From contig OY762722.1 of NCBI GenBank assembly GCA_963666305.1, forward strand, positions 4,707,073 through 4,771,072: a stretch of 64,000 nucleotides of DNA. The letters are read 5' to 3'. This DNA comes from Candidatus Poribacteria bacterium. GTDB lineage: Bacteria; Poribacteria; WGA-4E; WGA-3G. The notes under the pieces were generated by a model, which was not told the origin of the DNA, did not search any database, and worked only from the letters and a program-made list of their open reading frames with translations. Shown here piece after piece: positions 27,775-44,083 of this stretch (its first letter is position 1; every line of letters starts with the position of its first letter). Both the position numbers and the translations under genes were made by a program.

Positions 27775-27882
27775 ACTATATATAGTGATTCATGCCCCAA
27801 TTTAACTTGGAAAATCATACCCATCAGGGTTGAAGGCAGATTGGTTTATGAAGCATAACCGATGAAAGGAAATAAGAAATAA

Positions 27883-28422
27883 ATGATGCAAGAACATGTA
27901 ATACTCGTCGACCACACGGGAAGAGAAATCGGCACTCAGGAAAAGATGCAAGCACATCGTGATGGTAAATTACACAGTGCATTTTCGATTTTTGTCTTTA
28001 ACACCATAGGCGAATTGTTGCTTCAGAAGCGAGCGCAGACTAAGTATCATTCCGGTGGACTGTGGACGAATACGTGCTGCAGTCATCCACGTCCGGGTGA
28101 AAGTTATCATCGCGCGGCGAGACGACGACTCAACGAGGAAATGGGATTCGACTGTGAATTGACTGGACTCTTCAGTTTTATTTATCACACCCAACTCAAC
28201 AATAGCCTATTTGAGCACGAACTTGATCATGTCTTTGTTGGATATTATGATAGTCAACCGACTCCAAATCCTGACGAAGTTGACGATTGGAAGTGGGTCA
28301 ACGTCCTTACGTTGAGGCAAGACGTTCGAGAGAACCCTCAGAGTTATACACACTGGTTCAAATTGATACTCGACCGTGTTGTTGAAGAATATCAACAGGT
28401 GGGTTTTCACAATGAAACTTAA
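27883..28422 (+). CDS. idi: Isopentenyl-diphosphate delta-isomerase, type 1 (Nudix)
   Basis: ..HSAFSIFVFN..LLLQKRAQTKYHSGGLWTNTCCSHP.. matches type-1 IDI. Confidence 0.85.
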   Translation: MMQEHVILVDHTGREIGTQEKMQAHRDGKLHSAFSIFVFNTIGELLLQKRAQTKYHSGGLWTNTCCSHPRPGESYHRAARRRLNEEMGFDCELTGLFSFIYHTQLNNSLFEHELDHVFVGYYDSQPTPNPDEVDDWKWVNVLTLRQDVRENPQSYTHWFKLILDRVVEEYQQVGFHNET

Positions 28423-28987
28423 TCGATTCATACGTATAAATTTAGCATTGATTCTACTTTTCTCGTTTTGGGGGAATGAGGTTGCGGCTGGTGCGTCGGT
28501 AGAAGAAACACTGGAAGTCGCACGAAAGCAATTCTATACCGCAGTTGAGGATGAGGAGCACATTGAACCGACAATTAAACTTCTTGAACGCATTGCGCGA
28601 ATAGAGCCGAGCTATACTGGGCGGACGCAAGTTTACATCGGGGCACTTGTTGCCCTTAAAGGCAAGCACGCATTCCTGCCCCACACGAAGTTCAAGTGGG
28701 CAAAGCGCGGTTTAGCAATTATGGATGGCGGCTTGCAGAAAAATCCGAACGACATTGAAGCTTTGTTCATTCACGGTACGACCTGCTACTATCTTCCGTT
28801 CTTCTTCAGGCGTGGTGATGATGCACAGCGCGATTTCAGACAAATTATCAAATTGATACCACAACAGATGGATACCTATGCCCCGAAGTTAATCACAAAT
28901 GTCGTTGTGTTCTTACTTGAAAATGCGAAACTGACGGATGACGAGAAAATATATCTCCAAACGTTGAAAGACAAACTACAATCGTAG
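28412..28987 (+). CDS. Hypothetical secreted protein (helical)
   Basis: Signal peptide MKLNRFIRINLALILLFSFWGNEVAAGAS; start overlaps the idi stop (ATGAAACTTAA). Confidence 0.45.
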   Translation: MKLNRFIRINLALILLFSFWGNEVAAGASVEETLEVARKQFYTAVEDEEHIEPTIKLLERIARIEPSYTGRTQVYIGALVALKGKHAFLPHTKFKWAKRGLAIMDGGLQKNPNDIEALFIHGTTCYYLPFFFRRGDDAQRDFRQIIKLIPQQMDTYAPKLITNVVVFLLENAKLTDDEKIYLQTLKDKLQS

Positions 28988-29004
28988 CACCTAATCGAGC
29001 ATCA

Positions 29005-29697
29005 ATGAAATTTGAATACCTCTTGTTTAATCTCATCGTCATCGTTGGACCGGTAGTATCCCAATTCAACCGCCAAATTAAGCATATATCATATTGGCGA
29101 TTAAAATTGCTCACGAATACAATCGTCATGATTCCGTATATTATATGGGATGTGCTTGTCACCGGTTCGCATTGGTGGTTCAACGAGGCGCATACGCTTG
29201 ATTTTCGACTGTTAGGTTTGCCGATTGAGGAATGGCTCTTCTTTCTCACAGTTCCGTTTGGGTGCTTGTTAGTATGGGAAACACTGCCCGATGCGAAACT
29301 ATCAACGCGACTTCAAACCCTTCGGCATGTCAGAACAGCTTTATACACGGCGCTGCCGGTGGGTATATGGGTTTTCAGCACGGGCAAACAGTACACAGGA
29401 TTAGTCTTGTTTTGCGTTGGGCTTGTTGGACTGACAGACACATTGTTAAGAACCGAGCTGCTTATGCGACTGAAGACTTATGTCTACTTAGCAATTGTTT
29501 CTATTTTGATTGTGATATTCAACGGTTATCTTACGGCGCGTCCTGTGGTTTTATATGACGAGGCGTATCAGATTGGCTACAGGGTTTTGACGATTCCCAT
29601 TGAGGATTTCGGATATGGATTCACACTGATGCTCTTTAACGTGATGCTCTACGAAAAAGTTTTTAATATTACCTTGCGGAGAAACAACGAGTGTTAG
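29005..29697 (+). CDS. Lycopene cyclase domain protein (fused CrtYc/CrtYd-type heterodimeric cyclase)
   Basis: About 230-aa polytopic membrane protein with two similar halves, as in lycopene_cycl-domain cyclases; located in the crt cluster. Confidence 0.65.
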   Translation: MKFEYLLFNLIVIVGPVVSQFNRQIKHISYWRLKLLTNTIVMIPYIIWDVLVTGSHWWFNEAHTLDFRLLGLPIEEWLFFLTVPFGCLLVWETLPDAKLSTRLQTLRHVRTALYTALPVGIWVFSTGKQYTGLVLFCVGLVGLTDTLLRTELLMRLKTYVYLAIVSILIVIFNGYLTARPVVLYDEAYQIGYRVLTIPIEDFGYGFTLMLFNVMLYEKVFNITLRRNNEC

Positions 29698-29731
29698 GAC
29701 TGTTGCGTGCGTTTCTCAAATCTGAAGAAAT

Positions 29732-29790
29732 GGAAACGCCCTATCAAAAACCCCCAGCAAAAACCCTGCGCCGATGTTGCAGGCTGCTGT
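29732..29790. repeat. Family E repeat plus a 25-bp arm (CCTGCGCCGATGTTGCAGGCTGCTG) that is the inverted repeat of 31506-31530
   Basis: 23/25 reverse-complement match with 31506-31530; flanks the first crtI-family gene. Confidence 0.5.
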
Positions 29791-29899
29791 CTTGGGTAAA
29801 CTAAAGCGCGTAGCCCGTAATGTAACGGAGGGCGGTTTTACATCAAGGCGCGTTATTTACTTAACCGCTCTGAACGAACCGATAGGAATAATTAAAAAT

Positions 29900-31381
29900 A
29901 TGGAAAATAAAACAGTAGCGGTCATTGGAGGTGGACTTGGAGCATTGAGTGGCGCGATCCGTCTCGCACGACTCGGATTTTCTGTCCAGTTATTTGAGAA
30001 GAATCCGAAAATCGGTGGAAAGGTGAACGAAGTGATTTTGGGAGACTATCGGTTTGACACCGGGGCATCGCTGTTAACGATGCCATCTGTCATCGACGAA
30101 CTGTTCGATTTCGCTGGATTCAAGCGGTCAGATTATCTCGACTTTGTACCGATTGATCCAATATGCCGATACTTTTTCCCAGATGGTTCGGTGATGGATG
30201 CGAGTGCTGATAAGAGGAAGATGAAAGCCGCTATTGCGCAACTATCGCCGAACGATGTGAAGGCATACGAACGGTTTTTGAAATACACAGAACGCATTCA
30301 CGATCTAACAGCCGAAATCTTTATGTTTACCCCGATCCACGAATTTAGGAAACTCCTGCGACGGCGGTATTTTCGGACGCTGTTCAGGCTCCATCAAATT
30401 GACCCATTTCGGACGGTTCATCAGAGTGTATCACGTTTTTTCTCAGATCCGCGCCTCGTTCAACTTTTTGACCGCTACGCAACTTACAATGGCTCCGATC
30501 CATTTCAAGCCCCTGCTACTCTTAATATAATTCCATATATTGAATACGGATTGGGTGGGTATTACATCAAAGGCGGAATATACCGTTTGATTGACGCATT
30601 GAAAGCGGTGGCGTATGAATTAGGTGTTCAGATTCATACATCGGCGACAGTCGAAAAAATCTGCCATGATGGTAAACAGGTGAGTGGTGTGCGAGTTAAT
30701 GGTGAGAAAATTGAGGCGAATTACGTACTCTGTGGCACGGATGCAGTCGTAGCACATGACAAATTGATTGATGGACATCAGATTCGGCAAAAAAGACTCA
30801 ATCAATTGGAACCGTCATTGTCTGGAATGGTATTCCTATGGGGTGTTAGAGCGAGACATCCAGAGTTAGCACACCATAACATTATCTTCTCCAGCGACTA
30901 CGATGCGGAATTCGATCAGATTTTCAGAGATAGGCAAGTACCGGATGAACCGACGATTTACATTGCCATAACCAGCAAAGCGGATGCGGCACACGCGCCA
31001 ACTGATGGCGAAAATTGGTTTGTATTATTGAACATGCCATATATGGTTCCTGGGCAGATGTGGGAGAAGGAAAAAGTTCGGATGCAGAAGGTTGTTTTGG
31101 ATAGATTAAAGCAACTCGGTTTCGACATCGCAGATCAGATTGAAGTGGAGCAAATCTACACACCAGAGGATTTCTCTGAACTTTACGCCAGTAATCAGGG
31201 CAGTATCTACGGTGTATCGTCGAATAGCAAAACTACAGCGTTCAGACGGCTACCGAATCGGAGTCGTCTCCTTGATGGACTTTACTTCGCAGGGGGTTCA
31301 GTGCATCCGGGGGGCGGAATTCCGTTGGTAATATTGTCTGGGAAAATGACTGCGACATTAATTGCTGAAAACAGTTTTTAA
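29900..31381 (+). CDS. Phytoene desaturase family oxidoreductase (CrtI/CrtD-like; possibly a 3,4-desaturase)
   Basis: FAD motif VAVIGGGLGALSGA; ..EKNPKIGGKVNEVILGDYRFDTGASLLTMP.. CrtI-family signature; leader GGAATAATTAAAAATATG is near-identical to that of the next gene. Confidence 0.75.
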   Translation: MENKTVAVIGGGLGALSGAIRLARLGFSVQLFEKNPKIGGKVNEVILGDYRFDTGASLLTMPSVIDELFDFAGFKRSDYLDFVPIDPICRYFFPDGSVMDASADKRKMKAAIAQLSPNDVKAYERFLKYTERIHDLTAEIFMFTPIHEFRKLLRRRYFRTLFRLHQIDPFRTVHQSVSRFFSDPRLVQLFDRYATYNGSDPFQAPATLNIIPYIEYGLGGYYIKGGIYRLIDALKAVAYELGVQIHTSATVEKICHDGKQVSGVRVNGEKIEANYVLCGTDAVVAHDKLIDGHQIRQKRLNQLEPSLSGMVFLWGVRARHPELAHHNIIFSSDYDAEFDQIFRDRQVPDEPTIYIAITSKADAAHAPTDGENWFVLLNMPYMVPGQMWEKEKVRMQKVVLDRLKQLGFDIADQIEVEQIYTPEDFSELYASNQGSIYGVSSNSKTTAFRRLPNRSRLLDGLYFAGGSVHPGGGIPLVILSGKMTATLIAENSF

Positions 31382-31440
31382 TTTTACCTTGCGGTTCGGT
31401 CAGGTGGACTTGATACATGAGTGCCTCTCCGTATATCTAA

Positions 31441-31530
31441 GGGAAACACCCAAGCAAAAACACCTCCACTTCGTTACGGACTACAATTGAGAAAATCATC
31501 AAAATCAGCAGCCTGCAACAACGGCGCAGG
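31441..31530. repeat. Family E repeat plus the inverted-repeat arm CAGCAGCCTGCAACAACGGCGCAGG
   Basis: See 29732..29790. Confidence 0.5.
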
Positions 31531-31595
31531 CAACTCGACAGGAGAGACCTCAAGTTACAAATATCGTCGTTACTCCGCAAGGAATAGTTAAAAAT

Positions 31596-33089
31596 ATGAA
31601 GCGCAAAATTGTCATCATCGGCTCAGGGTTCGGCGGACTTGCGGCAGCGATTCGACTGCAAGCCAAAGGCATGCGAGTCACACTTCTGGAAAAGAATGCG
31701 AAAGTTGGGGGTCATGCTTATCAACTGGTTAAGGAGGGCTACACCTTCGACATGGGACCCTCTATTATCACCGCTCCTGACTTGATTCAACGTGTATTTG
31801 CGTGTGGTGGCACACGGATGGAAGATTACCTTGATTTGGTGAAACTTGACCCATTTTATCGTATCTATTTCCATGGCGGTACATCTCTCGATTACACAGA
31901 TGACAGCGAACAGATGAAACAGCAGATGGCACAGTTCAGCACAACGGATGCCGATAACTACGATCGTTTCATGGCGCATACCTATCAACTTTACGATGCT
32001 GTCATCACGGACGGGTTAGGCGCGACCGCATTTGATTTGCCGACGATGCTCAATTTTCTGCCACGCGCTTTACGGCTTCGAGCATTGATGCCTGCCTACG
32101 ACTTTGTTAAGAGATATTTTGAAGATTCGCGTCACCGTTTTACCTTCTCGTTCCATCCGTTGTTTATAGGGGGCAATCCGTTCCGAGCACCAGCGGTTTA
32201 CCTGATGATCCCGTATCTTGAAAAAGCTGGAGGGGTGTGGTTCTGCAAAGGCGGTATGTACAACCTCGTTCAGGCATTAGAGAGCGTATTTAAAAAACTC
32301 GGCGGTATCGTCGAGACTCATACAGAGGTTGAACAGATTATTGTTGAAAATCGGTGCGCAAAGGGAGTGATTGCCAACGAACAATTTTACGAAACTGATG
32401 GTGTTATTTCAAATGCCGATCTCGTACATACCTACGGAACACTTGTTAAATCCGAACATCGTAGGAAATGGTCTGACAAGAAACTTAGAAAGACGCAATA
32501 TTCGATGAGTGCCTTCCTGCTCTATCTCGGTGTCCGTAAAAAATATCCGCAACTCAAGCACCACACACTCATTTTGTCCGAAAGATACAAAGGATTGGTA
32601 ACCGATATTTTTGACAATAAAGTACTTCCGAAGGATTTTTCAATGTACCTACACATTCCATCACAAACCGACCCGTCAATGGCACCGGAAGGTTGTGAGA
32701 GCATATACGTCTTGATTCCTGTGCCAAATTTGGAGAGTAGTGTCAACTGGGCAAAGACGAAGGAGGCGTATACGGACAAAGTGCTGACATTCTTGGAAAA
32801 TGACTTTGGACTGACAGACCTAAAGCGTTCTATTGAAGTGCTCGAAACGTTTACGCCTTCAGATTTCAAAAGGCAACGAAACAACCATCTCGGCAGCGCA
32901 TGGGGCGTTGAGCCAAAACTGACACAAACAGCGTATTTTCGACCGCATAACCGAAGTGAAGATATACAGAAACTCTACTTTGTCGGTGCAAACACGCATC
33001 CCGGTGCAGGCGTGCCGGGTGTCTTGCTGACAGCAGAAACGACGGTAAAACTTGTCGTCAAGGATTTGATTGAGGAGAGCTCATCATGA
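31596..33089 (+). CDS. crtI: Phytoene desaturase CrtI
   Basis: IVIIGSGFGGLAAA..LEKNAKVGGHAYQLVKEGYTFDMGPSIIT classic CrtI N-terminus. Confidence 0.8.
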   Translation: MKRKIVIIGSGFGGLAAAIRLQAKGMRVTLLEKNAKVGGHAYQLVKEGYTFDMGPSIITAPDLIQRVFACGGTRMEDYLDLVKLDPFYRIYFHGGTSLDYTDDSEQMKQQMAQFSTTDADNYDRFMAHTYQLYDAVITDGLGATAFDLPTMLNFLPRALRLRALMPAYDFVKRYFEDSRHRFTFSFHPLFIGGNPFRAPAVYLMIPYLEKAGGVWFCKGGMYNLVQALESVFKKLGGIVETHTEVEQIIVENRCAKGVIANEQFYETDGVISNADLVHTYGTLVKSEHRRKWSDKKLRKTQYSMSAFLLYLGVRKKYPQLKHHTLILSERYKGLVTDIFDNKVLPKDFSMYLHIPSQTDPSMAPEGCESIYVLIPVPNLESSVNWAKTKEAYTDKVLTFLENDFGLTDLKRSIEVLETFTPSDFKRQRNNHLGSAWGVEPKLTQTAYFRPHNRSEDIQKLYFVGANTHPGAGVPGVLLTAETTVKLVVKDLIEESSS

Positions 33090-34015
33090 AAAAATTCTGG
33101 AAAGCAGAAGAGAATCGGGTTGCCTTTGAGTATGCTCGCAGGATAACTGCCCATTATTCAAAAAGTTTTTACTTCTCAACAAAGATGCTGCCCAAAGAAC
33201 AACGTTGGGCAACTTATGCGTTATACGGTTTCTGTCGACACTGCGACAATCTGATTGATACGCCGCGTCAACGGACTGAAACAGAAATCGTTAGAGAGAT
33301 ACAACTCTTGACAGAAGAATTACAGGTTGCTTACAATACAGGTGAGTCTCAACATCCAATTATTCGTGCATTCATTCTCGTTGCCAAGAGCTATGGTATC
33401 CCTATTGAATATCCGCTCGATTTGCTCAAGGGGGTCGCCATGGATGTCCAGCAGACGCGGTATAAAACGATTGATGAACTCTCTCTTTTCTGTTATCGGG
33501 TTGCCGCCGTTGTTGGACTGATGATGACCCATGTCCTCGGCTATAAGGACGAGCTTGCCTTTGGTTATGCCAAGCAACTCGGAATTGCCATGCAACTCAC
33601 CAACATCCTGCGTGACATCAAAGAGGATAAGAATATGGGACGCATCTATCTACCACAAAAGGATTTGGTGAGATTCGGTGTCTTGGAGCAAGACATCTTA
33701 AAAGAAAAAGTGACACCTCAATTGAAAGAACTGATGAAATTTCAAATTGAACGCGCAGATCACTATTACACCGAAGCCATGCCCGGCATCTCTTTACTCG
33801 AAACGGAATCACAGTATGCGATCTATTCAGCCGCTAAAATTTACCGCGGGATTTTAAGGAAGATTGAAGAGCACAACTATAACCCATTTTTAAGTCGAGT
33901 CTTTGTGCCGTCGAGTCAGAAAATCGGGATTCTGTTACACGAAGGACTTCGGGCAAAATTTCTATCGGCACAGGAGAAACTATTTCCAGTCCATTCAGGA
34001 ATAATCAACAAATGA
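33086..34015 (+). CDS. crtB: Phytoene synthase CrtB
   Basis: Squalene/phytoene synthase motifs (YGFCRHCDNLID..; ..GIAMQLTNILRDIKED..); ATGA overlap with crtI. Confidence 0.85.
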   Translation: MKKFWKAEENRVAFEYARRITAHYSKSFYFSTKMLPKEQRWATYALYGFCRHCDNLIDTPRQRTETEIVREIQLLTEELQVAYNTGESQHPIIRAFILVAKSYGIPIEYPLDLLKGVAMDVQQTRYKTIDELSLFCYRVAAVVGLMMTHVLGYKDELAFGYAKQLGIAMQLTNILRDIKEDKNMGRIYLPQKDLVRFGVLEQDILKEKVTPQLKELMKFQIERADHYYTEAMPGISLLETESQYAIYSAAKIYRGILRKIEEHNYNPFLSRVFVPSSQKIGILLHEGLRAKFLSAQEKLFPVHSGIINK

Positions 34016-34671
34016 TTCGGGCACAGCACCGTCTTTGGGCAGACATCATCTTTCAACCGTATCTAACCTGGTTGTTCAAGCGAAATTTTCACGAGATTCA
34101 GTTGTTAGGGACACCACCGAAAATACCTGACAAGCTACCGGTGCTGCTACTGCCAAATCACAGCACATGGTGGGATGGGTTCTTCGTTTATCTGCTCAAC
34201 AAAAAAATCTTTCGTCGGACTCCCTATCTGATGATGTTAGAAAAGCAACTATCGAAATACAAATTCTTCGCGAAAATAGGTGCTTATTCAATTGAACCGG
34301 AGAATCGACGGAACATCATTGAATCCCTTGAATACACCGTGGAATTATTGAATCAAGAGATGCCGCTCATCTCCGTTTTTCCGCAAGGACAACTCGTCCC
34401 GTGGCATACGCGACCTCTTGGATACAAACGCGGTGTTGAATGGATTTTACGGAAATACGGGAAACCTGTCGCTGTGCTTCCGTTGGCAATTCGCACAGAG
34501 TTTCTCGGCGAAAAGCGTCCAAGTGTATTCTTCCTGTTCGGTGCTGTCCATTCATTTGACGCGGGGACATTTCAAGGGATGGATTGGCTCGAACAGACTG
34601 AAACTGAACTATTAGATGATCTTGCTTTGCGGATTCTTCATGAAGAAAAGGGACAAAATCTGCTGGATTGA
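34012..34671 (+). CDS. Lysophospholipid-type acyltransferase (candidate carotenoid glycoside acyltransferase, CruD-like)
   Basis: HxxxxD motif (NHSTWWD) of the PlsC family; inside the crt operon next to a GT2. Confidence 0.6.
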   Translation: MIRAQHRLWADIIFQPYLTWLFKRNFHEIQLLGTPPKIPDKLPVLLLPNHSTWWDGFFVYLLNKKIFRRTPYLMMLEKQLSKYKFFAKIGAYSIEPENRRNIIESLEYTVELLNQEMPLISVFPQGQLVPWHTRPLGYKRGVEWILRKYGKPVAVLPLAIRTEFLGEKRPSVFFLFGAVHSFDAGTFQGMDWLEQTETELLDDLALRILHEEKGQNLLD

Positions 34672-34686
34672 AAGGTTGGTATTGCT

Positions 34687-35808
34687 TTGTTTATCCTGAT
34701 GCTTATTTCGATGGTTCTATTGACAGTTATTCTAACAGTCACACTGTTTAATGCTGCGACCGCACCGATGCTAAAAAAAACGTTTGGTCTCCAGAGTTGT
34801 CCACGCGTTTCGGTGTTGATCCCGGCGCGCAATGAAGAAACCAACGTTGGTGCTTGTATTGAAGGGTTCCTGTCTCAAAACTATGGTAACTTGGGGGTTC
34901 ACGTCCTTGATGACCAATCGACAGACCGCACGGGTGCGATTATCGAAAAAATCGGCGAACAGTATCCTGAAGTTCAGGCGATTCACGGTAAACCATTGCC
35001 AGCGGGATGGCATGGAAAAAACTGGGCATGTCATCAATTGAGCCAATACGCGGATGGAGAGATACTCATTTTTACCGATGCGGATAATCGTCCGGCACCA
35101 AACGCGATTGCGAATACTGTTGCCTACATGCAGAAGTTGGAGCTTGGATTCTTCTCGGCGTTTCCAGAAAAAGTAACAGGAACTTTGGCAGAAAAACTCG
35201 TCGTGCCGGTAGTGGATATGTTCGTTTATGCCGGGCTCCCGTTATGGCTTACCTACTTCAGTCGTTTTCCGTCGCTTGCAGCGGCGAGCGGTCTCTGGAT
35301 CGCATTCACCCGCGAGGCATATCAACAGGTTGGTGGACATCAAGCAGTATCAAATCAGATTGTTGAAGACGTTGAACTCAGCCGATTGGCAAAAAAGCGG
35401 GGTATCAAAATCTTGACCTCGGCGGGAACGCGCGTGGTGTCTTGCAGGATGTATCATTCGTTCAAGGAGGTCTGGGACGGATTTTCCAAAAACCTTTTTG
35501 GACTGGTCGGCTACAAAATGATACCGTTTTTTATTTTAGTTCTCGGTCTGTTTACAATGTGTGTGTTACCCTATATCACTGTCTGGTTTGCACCACTTAG
35601 AGGACTGGCAATTGTTGCTATCGTTATGAATATCGTTATTCGGATGGTGCTGGCATTCAAATATAGGCACCCCTTCTTCACAAGCGTAATTTTACATCCG
35701 TTTGGCATTCTATTAACCTTGCTGATTGGTATCAATTCATTCTGTCAAGTTAGAAGTGGTCGTCTGCAGTGGAAAGGGCGACAGATTGATCTGCAAACGA
35801 CTGAGTAA
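34687..35808 (+). CDS. Family 2 glycosyltransferase (candidate carotenoid glycosyltransferase, CruC/CrtX-like)
   Basis: GT2 motifs (VSVLIPARNEE..DDQSTD..FTDADN) plus C-terminal TM helices; TTG/ATG start uncertain (34687/34699/34711). Confidence 0.65.
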   Translation: MFILMLISMVLLTVILTVTLFNAATAPMLKKTFGLQSCPRVSVLIPARNEETNVGACIEGFLSQNYGNLGVHVLDDQSTDRTGAIIEKIGEQYPEVQAIHGKPLPAGWHGKNWACHQLSQYADGEILIFTDADNRPAPNAIANTVAYMQKLELGFFSAFPEKVTGTLAEKLVVPVVDMFVYAGLPLWLTYFSRFPSLAAASGLWIAFTREAYQQVGGHQAVSNQIVEDVELSRLAKKRGIKILTSAGTRVVSCRMYHSFKEVWDGFSKNLFGLVGYKMIPFFILVLGLFTMCVLPYITVWFAPLRGLAIVAIVMNIVIRMVLAFKYRHPFFTSVILHPFGILLTLLIGINSFCQVRSGRLQWKGRQIDLQTTE

Positions 35809-36483
35809 GTGAATATATTCGTGAATAAACTAAAAACAGGGGCGCTTTATCTACTTTTAGGTGCGGGTGGATTGTGGCATGTACTCGGTGTGTTGCAAGA
35901 AGTCATGCGCGTCCTTGCTTCACCGATCATGTTCGGTTTGGGTGTATGGCTCTTTTGGGAATGCTGGCGGGTATATCCACGGAATGAACGACTGAAATTT
36001 ATCATCGTCAGTATAGGGGTTGTTTTCGTGAGTCTTGGGATTGAATGGATCGGTGTCTGGACAGGCGACATTTTCGGTTCATACCTGTATGGACAAACCT
36101 TACAGCCGTCGATCGGTGGTGTCCCCATCAGCATTGGGTCTGCTTGGTTTGTGACGCTCATTGCCTCGACCGCTGTTGCTCAGAAAATTGTCCCTAAATC
36201 CTTAGCAGAAGGTTTCCATTTCAAAATAGCGTTTTTGGTGGCTTTGCTAATGGTCTGCTTCGACCTGCTTATGGAACCAGCGGCAGTGAAATTGGATTAT
36301 TGGACCTGGATGAGCGACCATATCCCCTTGCGGAACTATTTAGCGTGGTTCGGATTAAGCTTCATCTTTGCGATGGTAGGTTTTCAAATTGGCGTGTTTC
36401 GTCAACAGTTACCTCGAATTGCTTTTCACTGTTATTTTGCGCAACTTCTATATTTTGGATTGGTTAATCTAAGCGGCTTATGA
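35809..36483 (+). CDS. Polytopic membrane carotenoid-biosynthesis protein (CruF/Caroten_synth-like; candidate 1',2'-hydratase)
   Basis: Six or seven TM helices, in-operon; family call is from memory of CruF-type proteins and is tentative. Confidence 0.35.
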   Translation: MNIFVNKLKTGALYLLLGAGGLWHVLGVLQEVMRVLASPIMFGLGVWLFWECWRVYPRNERLKFIIVSIGVVFVSLGIEWIGVWTGDIFGSYLYGQTLQPSIGGVPISIGSAWFVTLIASTAVAQKIVPKSLAEGFHFKIAFLVALLMVCFDLLMEPAAVKLDYWTWMSDHIPLRNYLAWFGLSFIFAMVGFQIGVFRQQLPRIAFHCYFAQLLYFGLVNLSGL

Positions 36484-37196
36484 AATCGACAAATAAGGGT
36501 TTATTCATTGCGTTAGGAATTATTGGTTTATGGGGAGTGAGTCTCTCAATTCTCCTCACACTTGATGCTCGTCGCGCTCACTTTGTGGTGCTACCTTTGG
36601 GCATGCTTTGTCAGACATTTCTGTACACGGGTCTGTTCATCACAGCGCACGACGCGATGCACGGTTCAATTTGTCCTACGCATCCGCGTATCAACAATGT
36701 AATGGGAGCACTCGCTGTCAGGTTATATGCCCTGTTTTCATATCGTAAATTACAGAAGAAACATTGGGAACATCACCGAACACCCGCCAGTGATACAGAT
36801 CCAGATTTTCACGATGGAAAGCACAGTGGGTTTTTGGCGTGGTATTTCCATTTCATGAGAGAATACCTGAGTTGGCAGCAAATCGTCGGTATGGCAATTG
36901 TATTTCAAATTATGGAATACGTTTTAGGGATCCCGACTTTCAAACTGATACTCTTTTGGGTTACTCCGGCATTGCTTAGCACACTCCAGTTGTTTTACTT
37001 TGGGACATATTTACCCCATCGAACGCCGGAAACTGGATATGATAACCGGCATCGTGCGCAGAGCAATGCGTATTCAACATTCTGGTCGTTTATCTCGTGT
37101 TATCACTTCGGTTATCACTGGGAACACCATGAGTATCCATACATCCCGTGGTGGCATTTGCCAGCAATACGTAGAATGAGGACGCGCCTCCAATGA
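36480..37196 (+). CDS. crtW: Beta-carotene 4-ketolase CrtW
   Basis: His boxes HDAMHG, HWEHH, HWEHH as in CrtW. Confidence 0.75.
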   Translation: MKSTNKGLFIALGIIGLWGVSLSILLTLDARRAHFVVLPLGMLCQTFLYTGLFITAHDAMHGSICPTHPRINNVMGALAVRLYALFSYRKLQKKHWEHHRTPASDTDPDFHDGKHSGFLAWYFHFMREYLSWQQIVGMAIVFQIMEYVLGIPTFKLILFWVTPALLSTLQLFYFGTYLPHRTPETGYDNRHRAQSNAYSTFWSFISCYHFGYHWEHHEYPYIPWWHLPAIRRMRTRLQ

Positions 37197-37919: not shown

Positions 37920-40016
37920 TCAGTCTGTCACTTCCACAGAAATTTTTGCGTGAAAGGCATTTATATGTCCCTTTTCACCGTACCAGTCCCCTGTGGCTCC
38001 AAACTTAAAGACTTTGCCTCGCGCGAAACGATGCCTGATTTTTCCTGCTGTACTGGGTCTAATTCCCCACGCGGAGGTAAGTGCGTCAGTAGGATAGCCT
38101 TCTGTCGGCAGTTCGGTGTCGTCATCAAAGAGATCAAACGAACCGGAAGTGTCAGCACTCCCGACATGGATATCAATAATTAGCGTCCCACCATCTTCAA
38201 ATGCCGTAGCATCAATATTGACGACAGTGTAATCCTGATAACCTTCTCCGGGTGCTCGAAAAGCGTCTAATATTTCCTGTGACGGTTGCGTTTTGCTCAG
38301 TACAACATTCAGAACACTTAACGGTGCCTCTGGCGCGTCCTCGTTCGATTCAGAACGTTTTTCTTCTAAGGGTTCCTTTTGATTCTTCTCTACAGAAATT
38401 CTCGCCTTAAAAGCATTTGTGCTGCCTTTCTCATTCCAACTGTGATGCGCAGTAGCACCTAATGTAAAAAACGCACCTCGGTCAAAGCGATGCGTGAGTT
38501 GCCCTGTCTCATCAGGCCTGAGCGATACCCGGTCAAGTTTCTTATCTTGAGGCACCCAGTCATCCATAGGAAGCCGGCTGTCACCATCAAACAGAAGGAA
38601 CACACCTTTTGCCTCGGCTCTACCGACTTCAATATCAACGGTTAGTGTGCCACCATTTTCAAACGCCCTTGTATCAATGACAACAATGGTGTAATCCTGA
38701 TAGCCAACCACTGGTGTTCGGAAAACATCAAGGACATCCTGAGAAGACCCCTCGCTGTTCAGGGTTATATTCCCCAACCCGGGCTGTTGTCCTTCTAAAG
38801 CTTCCTTAAGAAATATAAGGTAACCCTCCTGCCACCGGAGTTTTCTACGCCATGTGTCGTCAATAAAATCATTGACAAGCAGCCTGCCCATCAGTTCAAA
38901 ATCGGGTGATATGACGAAACAATCCACGGGTGAACCCTTCTTCGATCCGGTCTTCCACCCCTTTATAATGGCTTGTGCCAACGGATGGCTTGTATCATAA
39001 GTCTTACCCTCGCGCTCGCGTCGCCTTGCAATCGGTTCTCGCAAACTATGGATACGCCCCAATTCAGCATTTGCTACCCAAGTGTTGATAAAATTTTCGT
39101 TCAAGAATGCTATGATTCCATCGTCATCGAGGACACCTGTCCTCAGGCTTTTGCCACTCCCTCAGCAGGATTCGTCGAAAAGTGGTCCACTTATTGAGAT
39201 GGCATGGATTGGTTTCTGTTGTGCAGGTGCCATCTTCAAGGCTTCTTCCAGCGATACCCAGTTAATTCGCGCCGACTTGTAAAAACGTAACATCAGTGCT
39301 TGCAATGCTTCTGCTTGGAGGATCGCTTCTGTGAATTTAGCATCTTGCAAAACGTCTTGTTTTCCTGCACAGAGTTCCATTTGCGGACAAAAGCCGATGT
39401 CCGCGGCGCGGCGTTCATTTCCAAATATCCTCCAACGTACATCAAAGTTCAGTGTGGCTTCCGGAACGTGCATCTTGAAGGAGGTAACCTTCTTTTTTAG
39501 CTGGTCAATAACTACATGTCCGGCAAACTGCGATGGGGCAAACCAACCTTTTTCTAAAACGAATTCCGCGTGGATACGAAACAGAATCTCAGCAAACTCA
39601 TCATTGTAGGCGCGTAGACATGCCCACAAACCGTAAGAATCCCCTCCACCAACCTCCAATTCCAATTGTGGACGCGGATTGAGTTGCCGCAGCAGCGTTA
39701 ATGCCCCCTCTTCTTCAATCTGCCAGCATTCACCCACCGAAACCGGTTCCTGTGGCAAAAATGCTTGAAAAACAGAGGCTGCATACTGCTTCTCCGGTTC
39801 AGCAGCCCGCAAATTCGCCAATTCGTCCCAATCCACGTGATAGTTACGTTGGGTGTATTCAATCGGTGCAATGACACCTGTGACGGACACTTCTGCATCA
39901 TCATCAAGCTTAAGTGCAATTTTATTGTTGAAAGTTTTCACTTTTCGGTATGAATTTCCTTTTCGGTATAGGATACCATTGCCATTAGAAGGAAGCAATG
40001 ATTCGCTTATACACAT
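37920..40016 (-). CDS. Candidate selenoprotein A. One continuous reading frame through an in-frame TGA at 39162-39164: an unknown N-domain, a thioredoxin-like segment (..KPIHAISISGPLFDESC-U-GSGKSL..FLNENFINTW..) and two tandem beta domains
   Basis: ORFs 39162..40016 and 37920..39104 are in the same frame separated only by TGA. The codon-level substitution pattern against the paralog continues uninterrupted across the TGA. A hairpin GAGGAC-AGGU-GUCCUC (plus 39129-39144) sits 17-33 nt downstream of the UGA, as a bacterial SECIS would. Confidence 0.45.
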
Positions 40017-40077
40017 TCTCGGATGCGCTCATGTATACTAAAGTTTAGACAATTCGTGTTGCGTGCAAGTTGAGTTT

Positions 40078-40605
40078 TCAAAGTGTTTCGCTCGCGTCTT
40101 CAAGCACAGCGTCGATCAACCTACTGCTGAGTCGGAAGCCTTTCTGCTGGAGTTGTAATAGTAACGGGCGAACCGCTCTAATTTTGCCTTTCTTTTTCGC
40201 AAACAAAAGAAAACCTGCTACACCGACTGCTTGCAATCCTAAAGACTGAGCAACTTTTCGCCCGCGTAGGTCATCAACAAACACATTCGTTACACCCAGT
40301 TCTGTTGCTAATACCAGCGTTTCAGCCTCGCCTTTATCTAGTGTTGCCATTAGCATTGTAACTGCTGATGTGTTAGAAACGGTTTGCCTTCCAACAAAAG
40401 TCGCTTGTCGTAATTCTTTTTCTCCCGGTCTCCCTTCTCCTCGTTCAGCAACTTCCTCCCAAACTTTGTCCGCGATGATCAACGTTTCGACAAGTGTTTT
40501 CAAAGCATCCCACTGTTGGCAAAGAGAGATACCAATTACAAATGAGGCATCAGCTACAGCTATCAACTTGCTTGCATCGGTTACTTTGTTTGTTGTATTA
40601 AGCAT
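40078..40605 (-). CDS. DUF3368 PIN-like toxin
   Basis: Paired with and overlapping a UPF0175 gene; PIN-like acidic residues. Confidence 0.55.
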   Translation of the reverse strand: MLNTTNKVTDASKLIAVADASFVIGISLCQQWDALKTLVETLIIADKVWEEVAERGEGRPGEKELRQATFVGRQTVSNTSAVTMLMATLDKGEAETLVLATELGVTNVFVDDLRGRKVAQSLGLQAVGVAGFLLFAKKKGKIRAVRPLLLQLQQKGFRLSSRLIDAVLEDASETL

Positions 40606-40865
40606 TCGACAGTCTTCAATTCCTGTTGGATTTCCTCATCATCGTATTCAGCAATCGGGATATCGTGCTGACTCAGCAGCCGAATAAAATCCCATAAGTG
40701 TAGTTCTGCCAATTTTGCAGCTTGCCCTAAAGAGAGAATGTTCCGCTCGAAGAGAGAGATCGCAAGCACCTGTTTTGCCTCCTCAGTCAGTTTCTCTCGA
40801 TTATAGCCGGAAATAGAAAGTGGGGTTGAAAGTTCACTAGGGACATCCAATGTGATAGAACGCAT
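40581..40865 (-). CDS. UPF0175-family antitoxin
   Basis: Small helical protein ..ISLFERNILSLGQAAKLAELHLWDFIRLL.. typical of UPF0175; 25-bp overlap with the downstream toxin gene. Confidence 0.55.
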   Translation of the reverse strand: MRSITLDVPSELSTPLSISGYNREKLTEEAKQVLAISLFERNILSLGQAAKLAELHLWDFIRLLSQHDIPIAEYDDEEIQQELKTVECLIQQTK

Positions 40866-41037
40866 GATTCTTACCTCTATATCGCCTTAAGAGTAGCACC
40901 AAAATGTAGTTCGTTTTGATTATAAAACATCGCTCATAGGTTCAGTAACATTATACCATCTTTCACAAGAAAACATAATTTTAATTTGCCCAAACTTTAC
41001 TAAAAATAAATCATGTATCAATACAGGCTCGCAAATG

Positions 41038-42597
41038 CTATAGAGACAGAGAATTTTCTGTTGACTCCACAGAAGCTTTAGCGCGAAAAGCGTTGATGCT
41101 TCCTTTCTCGTTAGATGCCCAACCCAGAGCGACCAATTTAAAGATCTGTCCTCGTTCAAAATGATGTGTCATTTCTCCCGTTTCATTAGGACCCAACCAA
41201 CCTGTGTCGTGCGATGCCTCAAGAAGGATTCCTTCGGGACGTTTGTAATAAGGATCAAAGGTAAGTCTGTGATCGGCATCCAGCAGATGAAAGGACCCGT
41301 ACGCCTTTTCATCACCTACTTCAATATCAATGATGAGTGTACCGCCTCTTTCAAACGCTGTGGTATCAACTACGACAACCGTGTAGTCTTGATGTCCATA
41401 TTCTGGGGTGCGAACAACGTCCAATATCCGTTGCGAGGGTTGCTCGGGTGTGAGAACAGTGTTCCCGAATCCGGGGAGTTTTCCTGCTAAGGCATCCGCG
41501 AGGAAGAGAAGGTAATTCTCACTTTCCAAAGTGCCATCTTTACGTCTGTTGTTCCCAAGGTAATCATTGACGGCTACATGTCCTATCGCTTCGAGTTCAG
41601 GGGATATAACCCATGTATCTACTGGACCTCGCCGCCATTTGTTACTAATGATTGTGCGTGCCAACGGAGATACTCCGTCAAATCCTATAGTATCGCGCAT
41701 GTGCCTCAGGTCAATATTGCGTATCCACGTATTGATAAAATTTTCGTTCAGAAATTTGATAATCCGTTCGTCGGAGAGGACAACTGCCCTCAAGCTTTTG
41801 CCGCTCCCTCAGCATGCCTCGTCGGCGAGCGGTCCATCTATTGAAATAGCATGGATCGGTTTCTGCATTTTTTCTGCCATTTCCAGTGCTTCTTCGAGCG
41901 ATACCCAGTTAATTCGTTGCGATTTGTAGAAACGCCGTATAAGCGCGCATTCCGCTTCTTTTTGTGTGATGGATTCGGTATATTCAGAGTTCGGAATTTG
42001 TATTCCTGTAAGGAGTTCCATTTGTGGGCAAACACCACCACCTGTAGTAAAACCCGAGTGATCTTTGTGTTTCTTCCAGTTGACATCAAACCATGTATTT
42101 TCAGGAACGCGCATCTGGAAAAACACGACACTTTTCTTCGGACAGTCAATAACCAGATGTCCAGCAAGCTGAGAAGGTGTGAACCAACCGTCCGTTAAGG
42201 CAAACGCCGCATGGATCCGAAACACGATATCAGCGAATTCATCATTGTAAGCGCGTAGACACGCCCACAAACCACGGGAATCTCCTGCATTAATGTGCAT
42301 ATCCAGATTCGGATTGGGTTGAAACTGTTCCAGCAAGGCACGCGCGCCTTGGTCGTCAATCTGCCAAGACTCTCCAACGGAGACAGGCTTATCTGGAAGA
42401 AACGCTCGGAAAACCGAGGTAGAATACTCCTTTTCTGGTTCAGCAACACGTAAATTTGCCAACGTATCCCATTCTTCATGGAAATTCGGATCCATGTCCT
42501 CAATCGGTGCGATGAACCCTTTGACGGACACTTCTGTGTTATTGTCAAGATTGAGAGCGATTTTGTCTGGTAAAGTTTTCATTTTGGGATTCCTCAT
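41038..42597 (-). CDS. Candidate selenoprotein B, paralog of 37920..40016. In-frame TGA at 41809-41811 within ..KPIHAISIDGPLADEAC-U-GSGKSL..FLNENFINTW..; single C-terminal beta domain
   Basis: ORFs 41809..42597 and 41038..41793 share one frame across the TGA. 25/27 nt around the TGA are identical to paralog A, with only synonymous differences. Hairpin GAGGGC-AGUU-GUCCUC (plus 41775-41790) retains pairing through a G.U wobble. Confidence 0.45.
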
Positions 42598-42741
42598 TTA
42601 TGCCAACCTGACTTGCTGGAATTTTGGGTATGGAATGTCAAGGATTTTAGCCATTTGAACCTGGATTTGGTCGTAAGCTTGACTGCTGAAATTTTCGACT
42701 AAAGTTCCAAACAGATCGAATATAACAGCTTTGTAGGGCAT
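42598..42741 (-). pseudogene. Truncated HAD-hydrolase N-terminal fragment (47 aa, MPYKAVIFDLFGTLVENF..) abutting the start of selenoprotein-candidate B
   Basis: GGAG RBS, HAD motif-I-like FDLFGTL with the second Asp lost; its TAA is immediately followed by the ATG of the next gene. Confidence 0.35.
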
Positions 42742-43676: not shown

Positions 43677-43883
43677 CTATAATTCACTTTCTTCAATGCC
43701 ACAGATCTTCATAAAATGCCGCTGCAAGCCGCGTTTGAGTGTCTTATTCCCGTGAACAGGGACGGAGAGACGTACTGGAATTCCATCTTTACCGTAAATG
43801 TGATGGCTGCCTTTAATTCGTTTTAGCTGCCAACCCCGCTTTTCCAATAAGCGGCAATAGGCTCTACCGCTTAAGGCCTTCAA
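43677..43883 (-). CDS. hicA: HicA-family mRNA interferase toxin
   Basis: ..LEKRGWQLKRIKGSHHIY.. HicA motif. Confidence 0.8.
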   Translation of the reverse strand: MKALSGRAYCRLLEKRGWQLKRIKGSHHIYGKDGIPVRLSVPVHGNKTLKRGLQRHFMKICGIEESEL

Positions 43884-44083
43884 ACCGCTATCTCCATTAC
43901 CCTATCTTTCTCTGTAATTTGTAGTGCTGCAACATCCACAGATAAACATCCCTCAATGGCTTCATAGATGTTTTCAAGCAATTCTTCAAACGTCTCGCCT
44001 TGTGTAGCACATCCCAAGATTGCTGGCACTTCTGCCCAATATCCACCCTCTTCGGCTTCATGAATGACGACCTTTAGTTTCAT
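43880..44083 (-). CDS. hicB: HicB-family antitoxin (UPF0150)
   Basis: MKLKVVIHEAEEGGYWAEVPAILGCATQGETFEE.. HicB/UPF0150 N-domain; 4-bp overlap with hicA. Confidence 0.7.
   Translation of the reverse strand: MKLKVVIHEAEEGGYWAEVPAILGCATQGETFEELLENIYEAIEGCLSVDVAALQITEKDRVMEIAV

What the first reader, a model, noticed from the sequence alone, without database searches (positions are those of the whole stretch)
37920..42597. Two paralogous genes with a conserved in-frame TGA and a SECIS-like hairpin: candidate new selenoprotein family with a Cys-Sec dyad in a thioredoxin-like motif
In both paralogs a about 270-aa N-domain ORF ends ..PIHAISI(S/D)GPL(F/A)DE(S/A)C-TGA. The next ORF follows in the same frame with no usable ATG, continuing GSGKSLR..VL.D..II.FLNENFINTW. 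Around the TGA, 25 of 27 nt are identical between paralogs that are otherwise only about 55% identical. The few differences there are synonymous third-position changes (AGT/AGC, CTG/TTG), as if the frame were translated straight through. A hairpin GAGGAC-AGGU-GUCCUC (paralog A) or GAGGGC-AGUU-GUCCUC (paralog B, pairing kept by a G.U) lies 17-33 nt downstream of the UGA. Position and loop (AGGU, G-U in the apical loop) resemble the E. coli fdhF bacterial SECIS. The peptide around the TGA (W.SLEEAL..A...KPI...SI.......C[U]..........LNENF) resembles the DUF255/YyaL thioredoxin-like motif, with the CxxC region replaced by C-U. A Cys-Sec dyad is otherwise known mainly from the GCUG C-terminus of thioredoxin reductase. 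Both fused architectures (N-domain, Trx-like-U segment, one or two beta domains) are undescribed to my knowledge.
Basis: partly seen in the sequence, partly recalled or inferred. Interest (0 to 1): 0.88.

Follow-up and report, generated by a model that had tools for sequence, protein, structure and literature searches.

The report
Bacterial selenoprotein N genes, two copies
The two genes are real selenocysteine-encoding genes, but they are not a new family: they are bacterial relatives of animal selenoprotein N (the human muscle-disease protein SELENON), greatly multiplied in sponge-symbiont Poribacteria and missed by gene callers, Pfam and NCBIfam.

Summary
Two minus-strand paralogs (40016-37920 and 42597-41038) each carry an in-frame TGC-TGA followed by GSGKSLR, with a 6-bp hairpin 20-35 nt after the UGA.

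Evidence that the UGA is decoded as selenocysteine:
- In 80 related Poribacteria loci plus the window, 198 of 201 copies keep TG[CT]-TGA.
- Codons after the UGA vary synonymously, while the hairpin codons are frozen and show compensatory base-pair changes.
- A structure-first scan of 1.65 Mb found 241 sites of this family and one other.
- Homologs with Cys-Cys at this position exist.
- Published tables list SelA, SelB and SelD in Poribacteria WGA-3G, a genome that carries a family member.

The "new family" reading fails. A profile of the family hits Nematostella selenoprotein N (E 1.4e-32). Paralog B aligns to primate SELENON at E 4e-30, with C-U on the SCUG column. The middle domain is a thioredoxin fold of the DsbD-gamma/DsbH/UAS type, with Sec at the N-terminus of helix 1.

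These bacterial proteins differ from animal SELENON: no EF-hand or membrane anchor, one or two extra C-terminal beta-sandwich domains, an in-ORF bacterial SECIS, and tandem arrays. I found no paper describing bacterial selenoprotein N. The Sec machinery of the window's own genome, and selenium incorporation itself, were not tested.

The parts
37920..40016 (-). Paralog A. One gene of up to 698 codons read through the UGA. The maximal ORF starts at ATG 40016; the family-consensus start is GTG 39941. The terminal stop is TGA at 37922-37920.
   Evidence: The N-terminus matches the family pattern (V/M)KTFNNKIALxLD.
39162..39164 (-). Sec codon (UGA) of paralog A, in the motif D-E-S-C-U-G-S-G-K, i.e. 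SCUG.
   Evidence: TG[CT]-TGA is kept in 198 of 201 family copies. It aligns with Cys in the C-C homologs and with the SCUG column of animal SELENON.
39129..39144 (-). SECIS-like hairpin of paralog A: GAGGAC-AGGU-GUCCUC, at +20 to +35 from the U of the UGA.
39327..39941 (-). Paralog A, N-terminal beta-rich SelN-core domain. The boundaries are approximate.
   Evidence: Alignment to the AF2 model of homolog P0001. Homologous to the region of SELENON after the EF-hand.
38769..39326 (-). Paralog A, thioredoxin-like (DsbD-gamma/DsbH/UAS-type) domain holding the C-U centre.
37923..38768 (-). Paralog A, two tandem C-terminal beta-sandwich domains joined by an acidic linker (about 38768-38379 and 38321-37923).
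   Evidence: Internal repeat visible in the alignment. The fold resembles collagen-binding / pre-peptidase C-terminal domains. Coordinates.
41038..42597 (-). Paralog B. One gene of 519 codons from ATG 42597, or 514 codons from the likely true start ATG 42582. The terminal stop is at 41040-41038.
41809..41811 (-). Sec codon (UGA) of paralog B, in the motif D-E-A-C-U-G-S-G-K.
41776..41791 (-). SECIS-like hairpin of paralog B: GAGGGC-AGUU-GUCCUC, with one G.U pair.
41974..42582 (-). Paralog B, N-terminal beta-rich SelN-core domain. The boundaries are approximate.
41461..41973 (-). Paralog B, thioredoxin-like domain holding the C-U centre.
41041..41460 (-). Paralog B, single C-terminal beta-sandwich domain.

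Best explanation
Each paralog is a single gene encoding one polypeptide (about 514 and about 673-698 residues). An internal UGA is decoded as selenocysteine by the bacterial SelB/tRNA-Sec pathway. A short SECIS hairpin directs this; it lies inside the coding sequence 20-35 nt after the UGA, with a 6-7 bp stem and an apical loop AGGU or AGUU.

The proteins are bacterial members of the selenoprotein N (SELENON/SEPN1) family. They have a beta-rich N-terminal domain and a thioredoxin-fold domain whose active site [S/A]-C-U-G sits at the N-terminus of helix 1. They also have one (B) or two (A) C-terminal beta-sandwich modules that animal SELENON lacks. There is no signal peptide, so they are probably cytoplasmic.

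Inferred mechanism: the adjacent Cys and Sec cycle between a selenolate/thiol state and a vicinal selenenylsulfide, as proposed for the GCUG centre of thioredoxin reductase. The protein would then act as a thiol/selenol oxidoreductase on a substrate that the beta-sandwich module probably helps to bind.

What is shown: one reading frame under protein-level selection across the UGA, a conserved and covarying hairpin, Cys-for-Sec homologs, homology to SELENON, and the fold. What is inferred: selenium insertion itself, the redox chemistry, the substrate and the cellular location.
For: **One translated frame across the UGA.**
- Codons +1 to +4 (G, S/T, G, K) are invariant as amino acids but vary synonymously: GGG/GGA/GGC/GGT, AGC 82 / AGT 75, GGC/GGT/GGA/GGG, AAA/AAG.
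- 77 of 177 unique copies have CTG, and 4 have a Phe codon, at the only nearby candidate restart position.
- TG[CT]-TGA is kept in 198 of 201 copies from 80 loci.

**RNA-level constraint on the hairpin.**
- Codon choice is frozen there: Gly+9 is GGT in 111 of 111, Ala+8 is GCA in 159 of 161, Arg+7 is only AGR, and Leu+11 is CTC in 170 of 176. The same amino acids elsewhere use other codons.
- Mean MFE is -9.0 kcal/mol, against -4.3 for synonymous recodings of the same peptides.
- 171 of 177 unique sequences form a perfect 6-7 bp stem in one of three registers.
- Compensatory changes occur: pair 23-32 is GC 115 / AU 16 / GU 13, and pair 24-31 is GU 102 / GC 27 / AU 15.
- When the peptide changes (RAVELS, RARVLS), the stem is rebuilt in a shifted register.
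- The scan for UGA plus hairpin plus open frame found 241 family sites and 1 other in 1.65 Mb.

**Cys homologs.** P0126, P0131, P0139, P0144, P0148 and P0186 read ..DE[SA]CC[GA][ST]GK.. (P0148: CCKGSGK).

**Site-specific recoding.** TGA is the commonest ordinary stop in the window (14 of 32 long ORFs), and it is also paralog A's own terminator.

**Sec machinery in the phylum.**
- Table S4 of PMC5649159 lists SelA 2, SelB 1 and SelD 1 for Ca. Poribacteria WGA-3G. Locus L071 is from that genome and carries a TGC-TGA copy.
- Sec-type [NiFeSe] hydrogenases are reported from Poribacteria (PMC13582414).

**SELENON membership.**
- The family profile hits Nematostella XP_001632268 at E 1.4e-32. That protein's relatives are named Selenoprotein N.
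- BLASTP of paralog B against Pan SELENON gives E 4e-30 over about 400 residues, with the C-U column on the SC[U]G column.
- The SCUG motif is described in PMC8584023.

**Fold.**
- The AF2 model of homolog P0001 has pLDDT 80.8. The residue at the Sec position is 309, directly before helix 310-319.
Against: - No selA, selB, selD or tRNA-Sec lies in the window or in the 1.63 Mb of fetched loci. The window's own genome could not be searched, so the machinery is shown only for the phylum, and only from the literature.
- There is no experimental evidence of selenium incorporation.
- No Rfam SECIS family matches. This is expected, because bacterial SECIS elements are gene-specific.
- The hairpin is short (6 bp, about -9 kcal/mol), and its apical loop lies about 5 nt further from the UGA than in E. 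coli fdhF (my recollection of that sequence).
- The few contiguous close relatives have Gly or Trp, not Cys, at the Sec position (C-G, S-G, C-W, G-W). Cys forms appear only in more distant clades.
- The structure was modelled on a non-Sec homolog, not on the window proteins.
Confidence: 0.88

Rival explanations
1. The TGA is a genuine stop. The locus encodes two separate proteins per paralog: an N-terminal protein ending ..DEAC, and a C-terminal protein restarted at the TTG/CTG Leu codon six codons downstream. The GGGAG just after the stop would serve as a Shine-Dalgarno sequence, giving translational coupling.
For: - Public gene calls split almost all members in exactly this way. N-halves end at profile position 308 and C-halves start at position 315.
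- GGGAG lies about 10 nt upstream of the TTG in many copies.
Against: - The G-S/T-G-K codons between the stop and the putative restart are conserved as amino acids with free synonymous change. Some variants (GGC ACC GGC AGA, or GCA AGT) remove the GGAG.
- 77 of 177 copies have CTG and 4 have Phe codons at the putative start.
- Contiguous homologs with Cys, Gly or Trp at the position, and animal SELENON, show a single polypeptide.
- The split would cut a thioredoxin fold between strand 1 and helix 1.
Confidence: 0.04
2. The UGA is recoded, but not to selenocysteine. Either a SelC*-type tRNA (tRNA-ReC) inserts Cys through the same SECIS/SelB route, or near-cognate read-through inserts Trp or Cys.
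For: - tRNA-ReC, which decodes UGA as Cys, is described for some Sec-using bacteria (cited in PMC13582414).
- Natural C-C and C-W variants exist.
- Nothing here measures selenium.
Against: - Keeping UGA plus a costly hairpin in more than 200 paralogs, instead of mutating to TGC or TGT (one step away), argues that the product differs from Cys.
- The orthologous position in animal SELENON is an established Sec (PMC8584023).
- SelA and SelD, which are needed only to make Sec, are listed for Poribacteria WGA-3G.
Confidence: 0.05
3. The two genes are decaying pseudogenes that happen to share a nonsense mutation.
For: - Paralog B abuts a truncated HAD-like ORF (42598-42741), and a toxin-antitoxin pair is inserted between the paralogs. 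This suggests a rearranged region.
- One related copy (L017, about 6083) is clearly frameshifted.
Against: - The same TGA sits at the same codon in 198 of 201 copies across dozens of species, with intact frames of family-typical length on both sides.
- There are no other stops or frameshifts in either window gene.
Confidence: 0.01

Closest known systems
Animal selenoprotein N (SELENON / SEPN1 / SelN)
   Same: - The sequences are homologous over the whole core, covering the beta-rich domain plus the thioredoxin/UAS-like domain. BLASTP gives E 4e-30 and the profile gives E 1.4e-32.
- The active-site stretch is the same, [LW]xGxLDDxSC-U-GSG[KR]xLR, followed by LNExF[IV]xxW.
- Sec is adjacent to Cys. 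SCUG is literal in paralog A.
   Different: - There is no EF-hand and no N-terminal membrane anchor or ER targeting.
- One or two C-terminal beta-sandwich domains are added.
- The SECIS is a short in-ORF bacterial hairpin rather than a 3'-UTR element.
- The genes are multi-copy tandem paralogs rather than a single gene.
- Only about 25-31% identity.
E. coli fdhF-type bacterial SECIS / bSECIS consensus
   Same: - A hairpin lies immediately downstream of the UGA inside the ORF.
- The apical loop contains G then U, and the loop starts 26 nt from the U of the UGA. I recall 16-37 nt as the published bSECIS window.
- GCAGGU is shared with the fdhF element (my recollection of that sequence).
   Different: - The stem is shorter (6-7 bp) with no bulged U, and the loop is about 5 nt further from the UGA than in fdhF.
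- SelB binding was not tested.
- No Rfam family matches.
Thioredoxin_7 / DsbD-gamma / DsbH / Thioredox_DsbH (DUF255, YyaL) / UAS thioredoxin-fold domains
   Same: - The redox residue lies at the N-terminus of helix 1.
   Different: - No Pfam HMM of these families matches.
- The CxxC is replaced by a vicinal C-U, with Gly at the position of the second Cys.
Thioredoxin reductase C-terminal GCUG redox centre
   Same: A vicinal Cys-Sec followed by Gly. The presumed chemistry is a selenenylsulfide.
   Different: Here the centre is internal, within a thioredoxin fold. It is not on the flexible C-terminal tail of a flavoprotein, and there is no FAD/NADPH domain.

Membership tests
Bacterial selenoprotein gene (UGA decoded as Sec) | In-frame UGA with protein-level conservation on both sides | tested here: met
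   198 of 201 copies keep TG[CT]-TGA, and codons +1 to +4 vary synonymously.
Bacterial selenoprotein gene (UGA decoded as Sec) | SECIS stem-loop just downstream of the UGA, with G in the apical loop | tested here: met
   The hairpin lies at +20 to +35 with loop AGGU/AGUU/CGUG. It shows covariation and frozen codons, is more stable than synonymous recodings, and is specific in the scan. SelB binding was not tested.
Bacterial selenoprotein gene (UGA decoded as Sec) | Homologs with Cys aligned to the UGA | tested here: met
   P0126, P0131, P0139, P0144, P0148 and P0186 have C-C.
Bacterial selenoprotein gene (UGA decoded as Sec) | selA, selB, selC and selD present in the same genome | not testable with these tools
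   None were found in the window or in 1.63 Mb of loci. Literature only: Ca. Poribacteria WGA-3G has SelA, SelB and SelD (PMC5649159 Table S4), and that genome carries a family member (L071).
Bacterial selenoprotein gene (UGA decoded as Sec) | Selenium demonstrated in the protein | not testable with these tools
   This needs 75Se labelling or mass spectrometry.
Selenoprotein N (SELENON) | Significant sequence homology over the SelN core, beyond the generic Trx fold | tested here: met
   BLASTP E 4e-30 over residues 46-375 of paralog B against 90-491 of Pan SELENON. Profile E 1.4e-32 to Nematostella SelN over profile positions 67-394.
Selenoprotein N (SELENON) | SCUG redox motif | tested here: met
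   Paralog A reads S-C-U-G and paralog B reads A-C-U-G. In the family, the residue before Cys is S in 100, A in 74 and G in 3. The motif definition is from PMC8584023.
Selenoprotein N (SELENON) | EF-hand calcium-binding domain | tested here: not met
   Neither joined protein has an EF-hand hit in Pfam. The bacterial proteins begin at the SelN core.
Selenoprotein N (SELENON) | N-terminal transmembrane anchor / ER-lumen location | tested here: not met
   184 of 198 Sec copies, including both window genes, have no hydrophobic N-terminal segment.
Thioredox_DsbH / DUF255 (YyaL) thioredoxin-like family | Match to the Pfam model | tested here: not met
   No Pfam family matched at E up to 1, apart from a spurious BrnA hit.
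Thioredox_DsbH / DUF255 (YyaL) thioredoxin-like family | Thioredoxin fold of this subtype | tested here: met
   [not shown]
Thioredox_DsbH / DUF255 (YyaL) thioredoxin-like family | CxxC active site | tested here: not met
   The motif is C-U-G-S-G, with Gly at U+3 in all 177 unique copies.

The most novel reading that the evidence does not exclude
Poribacteria, and other so far unnamed bacteria, hold a large and previously unrecognised prokaryotic branch of the SELENON family. There are 758 clusters at 50% identity. Up to six Sec-encoding paralogs lie in tandem, with 241 Sec sites in 80 loci, which may be one of the largest selenoprotein gene expansions in any bacterial lineage.

On this reading the family is ancient in bacteria rather than a recent acquisition from the sponge host. 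The C-U centre has been combined with variable beta-sandwich modules, and in secreted forms with ECF-sigma signalling, to act on or sense many different targets.

This would give the first genetically and biochemically tractable relatives of a human disease protein whose catalytic mechanism and substrates are incompletely defined.
Probability: 0.45. Interest if true: 0.8.

Novelty: new variant of a known kind. Interest (0 to 1): 0.6.

Why it matters
**Relevance to human disease.** SELENON causes congenital myopathies. The literature read here describes it as a calcium sensor that activates SERCA2-mediated calcium uptake in a redox-dependent manner (PMC8584023). I found no solved structure related by sequence to the family or to Nematostella SelN. 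Soluble bacterial homologs include natural Cys-Cys forms that need no Sec machinery. They would be practical material for structures and enzymology of the SCUG centre.

**Relevance to microbiology.**
- Sponge symbionts invest heavily in selenium. This may explain the published observation that SelA and SelB are enriched in sponge-symbiont genomes (PMC5649159).
- Standard annotation splits every one of these genes in two and leaves both halves as hypothetical proteins. Selenoproteomes of these MAGs are therefore badly undercounted.

**Relevance to evolution.** The finding raises the question of whether a selenoprotein family so far described from animals and algae has a bacterial origin.

Tried and rejected
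**Searches that found nothing.**
- Pfam and NCBIfam scans of the joined proteins and of the halves found nothing.
- Rfam found no SECIS family, either at gathering threshold over the window or at E up to 10 on the two sites.
- ARAGORN found no tRNA at all in the window or in 60 loci.
- tblastn with E. coli SelA, SelB and SelD against the window plus 1.63 Mb of loci gave no hit. This says nothing about whole genomes.
- Sequence searches of the PDB with the family profile and with Nematostella SelN gave no relative.
- Literature searches for bacterial or Poribacteria selenoprotein N found nothing relevant. The library covers only open-access papers, so prior description elsewhere cannot be excluded.

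- The afdb50 fold library was unavailable.
- The listing of cluster members gave no organism names for the non-Poribacteria clusters. The wider bacterial taxonomy of the family therefore stays unknown.

**Ideas rejected.**
- I first took the window for cyanobacterial because of the carotenoid and leu genes. All 80 best related loci are Poribacteria.
- I suspected that the contiguous homologs with Gly or Trp at the Sec position were artefacts of translation with genetic code 25 or 4. The DNA shows real GGC, GGA and TGG codons.
- Genome-wide reassignment of UGA is ruled out, because TGA is the commonest ordinary stop in the window.

Full report
**1.

On the minus strand, ORFs 40016-39162 and 39104-37920 (paralog A), and 42597-41809 and 41793-41038 (paralog B), lie in one frame. 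A single TGA separates each pair.

- The junctions read ..DESC-TGA-GSGKSLRTGVL.. for A and ..DEAC-TGA-GSGKSLRAVVL.. for B.
- The TGA codons are at 39164-39162 and 41811-41809.
- From TGC to AGG, 25 of 27 nt are identical. Both differences are synonymous. The proteins overall are 56% identical.
- The hairpins are GAGGAC-AGGT-GTCCTC (39144-39129) and GAGGGC-AGTT-GTCCTC (41791-41776).
- A scan of the window for an in-frame TGA with at least 70 open codons on each side returned eight sites. Only these two join conserved coding sequence on both sides; one other is an ordinary gene boundary.

**2. Origin of the window**

A scan of one genome per bacterial and archaeal species found 220 stretches encoding relatives. 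The best 80 are all Candidatus Poribacteria, which are sponge symbionts, at up to 82% amino-acid identity. The window is therefore very probably from a Poribacteria genome.

The surroundings give no functional link:
- a carotenoid cluster on the other strand (29.8-37.2 kb);
- a DUF3368/UPF0175 toxin-antitoxin pair between the paralogs;
- leuCD, RNase J and leuS downstream.

**3. The UGA is read through, and the frame is under protein selection**

In the 80 loci plus the window, 198 of 201 copies of the upstream motif are followed by TG[CT]-TGA. Among 177 unique sequences, the four codons after the TGA encode G, S/T, G, K/R. Their third positions vary freely: GGG 139 / GGA 25 / GGC 7 / GGT 1; AGC 82 / AGT 75; GGC 119 / GGT 29 / GGA 19 / GGG 10; AAA 156 / AAG 14.

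The only nearby restart candidate is the Leu codon at +6. It is CTG in 77 copies and a Phe codon in 4. Some variants also remove the GGAG that could act as a ribosome-binding site.

Public gene calls nonetheless split the genes. In a search of 1.84 billion representative proteins, N-halves stop at profile position 308 and C-halves begin at 315.

**4. The hairpin is an RNA-level feature**

- Codons +6 to +11 are frozen: Leu only TTG/CTG, Arg only AGG/AGA, Ala GCA 159 of 161, Gly GGT 111 of 111, Val GTC 114 of 126, Leu CTC 170 of 176. The same amino acids a few codons away use other codons.
- The 27-nt region folds at a mean of -9.0 kcal/mol, against -4.3 for synonymous recodings of the same peptides. 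For 72% of sequences, at most 5% of recodings reach the observed value.
- 171 of 177 sequences form a perfect stem in one of three registers.
- Compensatory changes are seen: pair 23-32 is GC 115, AU 16, GU 13; pair 24-31 is GU 102, GC 27, AU 15.
- Where the peptide differs (..RAVELS....RARVLS..), the stem is rebuilt two bases along, with a 6-nt loop or a 7-bp stem.
- The loop is AGGU, AGUU, CGUG or AG[GU]UGA, with G in second position in nearly all copies.
- A scan that ignores the protein motif looked for TGA, a 6-bp stem 12-27 nt downstream, a [ACG]G[GU] loop and an open frame on both sides. It found 241 sites of this family and one other in 1.65 Mb on both strands.
- UGA is not reassigned genome-wide. 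It ends 14 of 32 long ORFs in the window, including paralog A itself.

**5. Cys homologs and Sec machinery**

More distant, contiguous homologs carry C-C at the site..DESCCGSGKALRAG.. in P0126, P0131 and P0139, and also P0144, P0148 and P0186.

A 12.7-Mb genome of unknown phylum encodes both a C-C form (P0186) and a Sec form with the same hairpin, a signal peptide and no C-terminal module (L083).

A few close relatives have lost the centre. They read C-G, S-G, C-W or G-W, from real GGC, GGA and TGG codons. Those examined carry signal peptides, and in P0010 and P0015 both redox residues are lost together. This fits two residues that work as a pair.

No sel gene or tRNA-Sec lies in the window or in the fetched loci, which is uninformative at that sample size. 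The literature fills part of the gap:
- Table S4 of Slaby et al. 2017 (PMC5649159) lists SelA 2, SelB 1 and SelD 1 for Ca. Poribacteria WGA-3G. Locus L071 is from that genome and holds a TGC-TGA copy.
- Sec-type hydrogenases are reported from Poribacteria (PMC13582414).

**6. What the protein is**

Pfam and NCBIfam give nothing.

The profile search also hit Nematostella XP_001632268 at E 1.4e-32. In that gene model, a false intron hides the Sec codon..WGALDDQS[LFLFIYCWMI]SGSGRTLRE... Its relatives are named Selenoprotein N.

Paralog B aligns with primate SELENON at E 4e-30 over about 400 residues, running from the N-terminal domain to the end of the thioredoxin-like domain. In a joint alignment, the C-U column falls on the SC[U]G column, followed by GSG[KR]xLR and LNExF[IV]xxW. 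SELENON is defined in the literature by an EF-hand and the SCUG motif, which is described as reminiscent of thioredoxin reductase (PMC8584023). Paralog A reads S-C-U-G.

**7. Structure**

AlphaFold2 on the contiguous homolog P0001 gave mean pLDDT 80.8 and pTM 0.77. The model has three parts:
- A beta-rich N-terminal domain.
- A beta-alpha-beta-alpha-beta-beta-alpha domain. The residue at the Sec position (309) lies directly before helix 310-319, where thioredoxin-fold proteins place their nucleophilic Cys. This last point is my inference, since no residue-level superposition was available.
- A C-terminal beta sandwich.

**8. How the bacterial proteins differ from SELENON**

- They have no EF-hand and no membrane anchor. 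184 of 198 Sec copies lack any N-terminal hydrophobic segment.
- They add one or two beta-sandwich modules. The same module also occurs on an S9 peptidase (P0163).
- They use an in-ORF bacterial SECIS.
- They occur as tandem arrays of up to six genes per 20 kb.
- Some secreted C-C or non-Sec forms are fused to, or lie next to, ECF sigma factors (P0131, P0209, L001, L002). This hints at a sensor role in those members.
- In a crude neighbour-joining tree, animals form one clade and bacteria several deep ones. This fits an old bacterial family better than a recent transfer from the sponge host, but the direction of transfer is unresolved.

**9. Mechanism**

Shown: a single frame, a SECIS-like element, a Sec/Cys pair, homology to SELENON, and the fold.

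Inferred: SelB delivers Sec-tRNA to the UGA. The adjacent Cys and Sec then form a reversible selenenylsulfide that reduces or isomerises a substrate bound with help from the beta-sandwich domain. The substrate is unknown. The many paralogs suggest diversified targets.

**10. Novelty**

The family (SELENON), the C-U dyad and bacterial Sec decoding are all known. The claim of a new selenoprotein family is therefore not supported.

I found no paper in the searchable library that describes bacterial selenoprotein N. Recent papers on bacterial selenoproteomes do not mention it (PMC13188914, PMC13326102, PMC12013277). One of them reports Sec-containing SelO in bacteria as a first detection of a family previously thought to be eukaryotic.

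I rate this as a new variant of a known kind, of moderate to high interest. The caveat is that a description in the non-open literature cannot be excluded.

Noticed in passing
window 40078-40865 (-): A toxin-antitoxin-like pair lies between the two paralogs: a DUF3368 (PIN-like) protein at 40078-40605 and a UPF0175 protein at 40581-40865. In related loci the paralogs are directly adjacent, so this looks like an insertion into a tandem array.
   Followed up: partly
window 42598-42741 (-): A 47-codon ORF (MPYKAVIFDLFGTLVENF..) looks like the N-terminus of a HAD-type hydrolase. It ends exactly where paralog B's ORF begins, so it is probably a gene remnant left by a rearrangement.
   Followed up: no
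window 26414-37196: A carotenoid gene cluster lies on the + strand: two CrtI-type desaturases, phytoene synthase, an acyltransferase, a GT2 glycosyltransferase, a Caroten_synth protein and a desaturase/ketolase-like protein. A MerR plus B12-binding (CarH-like, possibly light-responsive) regulator lies at 26414-27355 (-).
   Followed up: partly
window 43677-44083 (-): Two small overlapping ORFs (68 and 67 aa) look like a HicA/HicB-type toxin-antitoxin pair. I judged this by eye from the sequences; no family scan was run.
   Followed up: no
P0206 = Nematostella vectensis XP_001632268 / A7S7Z1: The public gene model of sea-anemone selenoprotein N replaces the ..SCUG.. codons with a spurious insert (LFLFIYCWMI). 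It is named only 'EF-hand domain-containing protein'. Several vertebrate models also show artefacts at the Sec position (SCHCSG, SCFSAGSG).
   Followed up: partly
L001 8630-11674, L002 8588-11662; proteins P0131, P0209: Secreted family members are genetically coupled to ECF sigma factors. The Poribacteria ones have lost Sec (C-G or S-G) and have a long ECF-sigma-like gene directly upstream. P0131 (a C-C form) and P0209 (a protein ending at the pre-Sec Cys) have an ECF sigma domain fused in the same polypeptide. ABC-2 transporter genes lie nearby in L001 and L002. This may be a redox-sensing anti-sigma module.
   Followed up: partly
L041 5842, L053 1137, L074 2782, L075 4169, L079 12427: A distinct Sec subfamily reads ..VWGCLDDESC-U-ANGKxLRAGPLS.. 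Its hairpin is GAG[GA]GC-GGGUCC-GCUCUC. The WGxLDDxSCU stretch is closer to animal SELENON than the window paralogs are.
   Followed up: no
L017 about 6083-6140: One family copy carries an indel in the hairpin region and then stop codons (..GSGKALRASCPL**..). It is a decaying pseudogene copy within an array.
   Followed up: no
L083 6001-7300 (12.67-Mb contig, GC 55%): A very large genome of unknown phylum encodes a signal-peptide-bearing Sec form that has only the two core domains and the same TTGAGGGCAGTTGTCCTC hairpin. The same contig also encodes a C-C form (P0186). The family and its SECIS therefore extend beyond Poribacteria.
   Followed up: partly
P0163 (924 aa): The C-terminal beta-sandwich module of these proteins also occurs at the C-terminus of a prolyl-oligopeptidase (S9) / PD40 protein. 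It is therefore a mobile domain and not specific to the SelN family.
   Followed up: no
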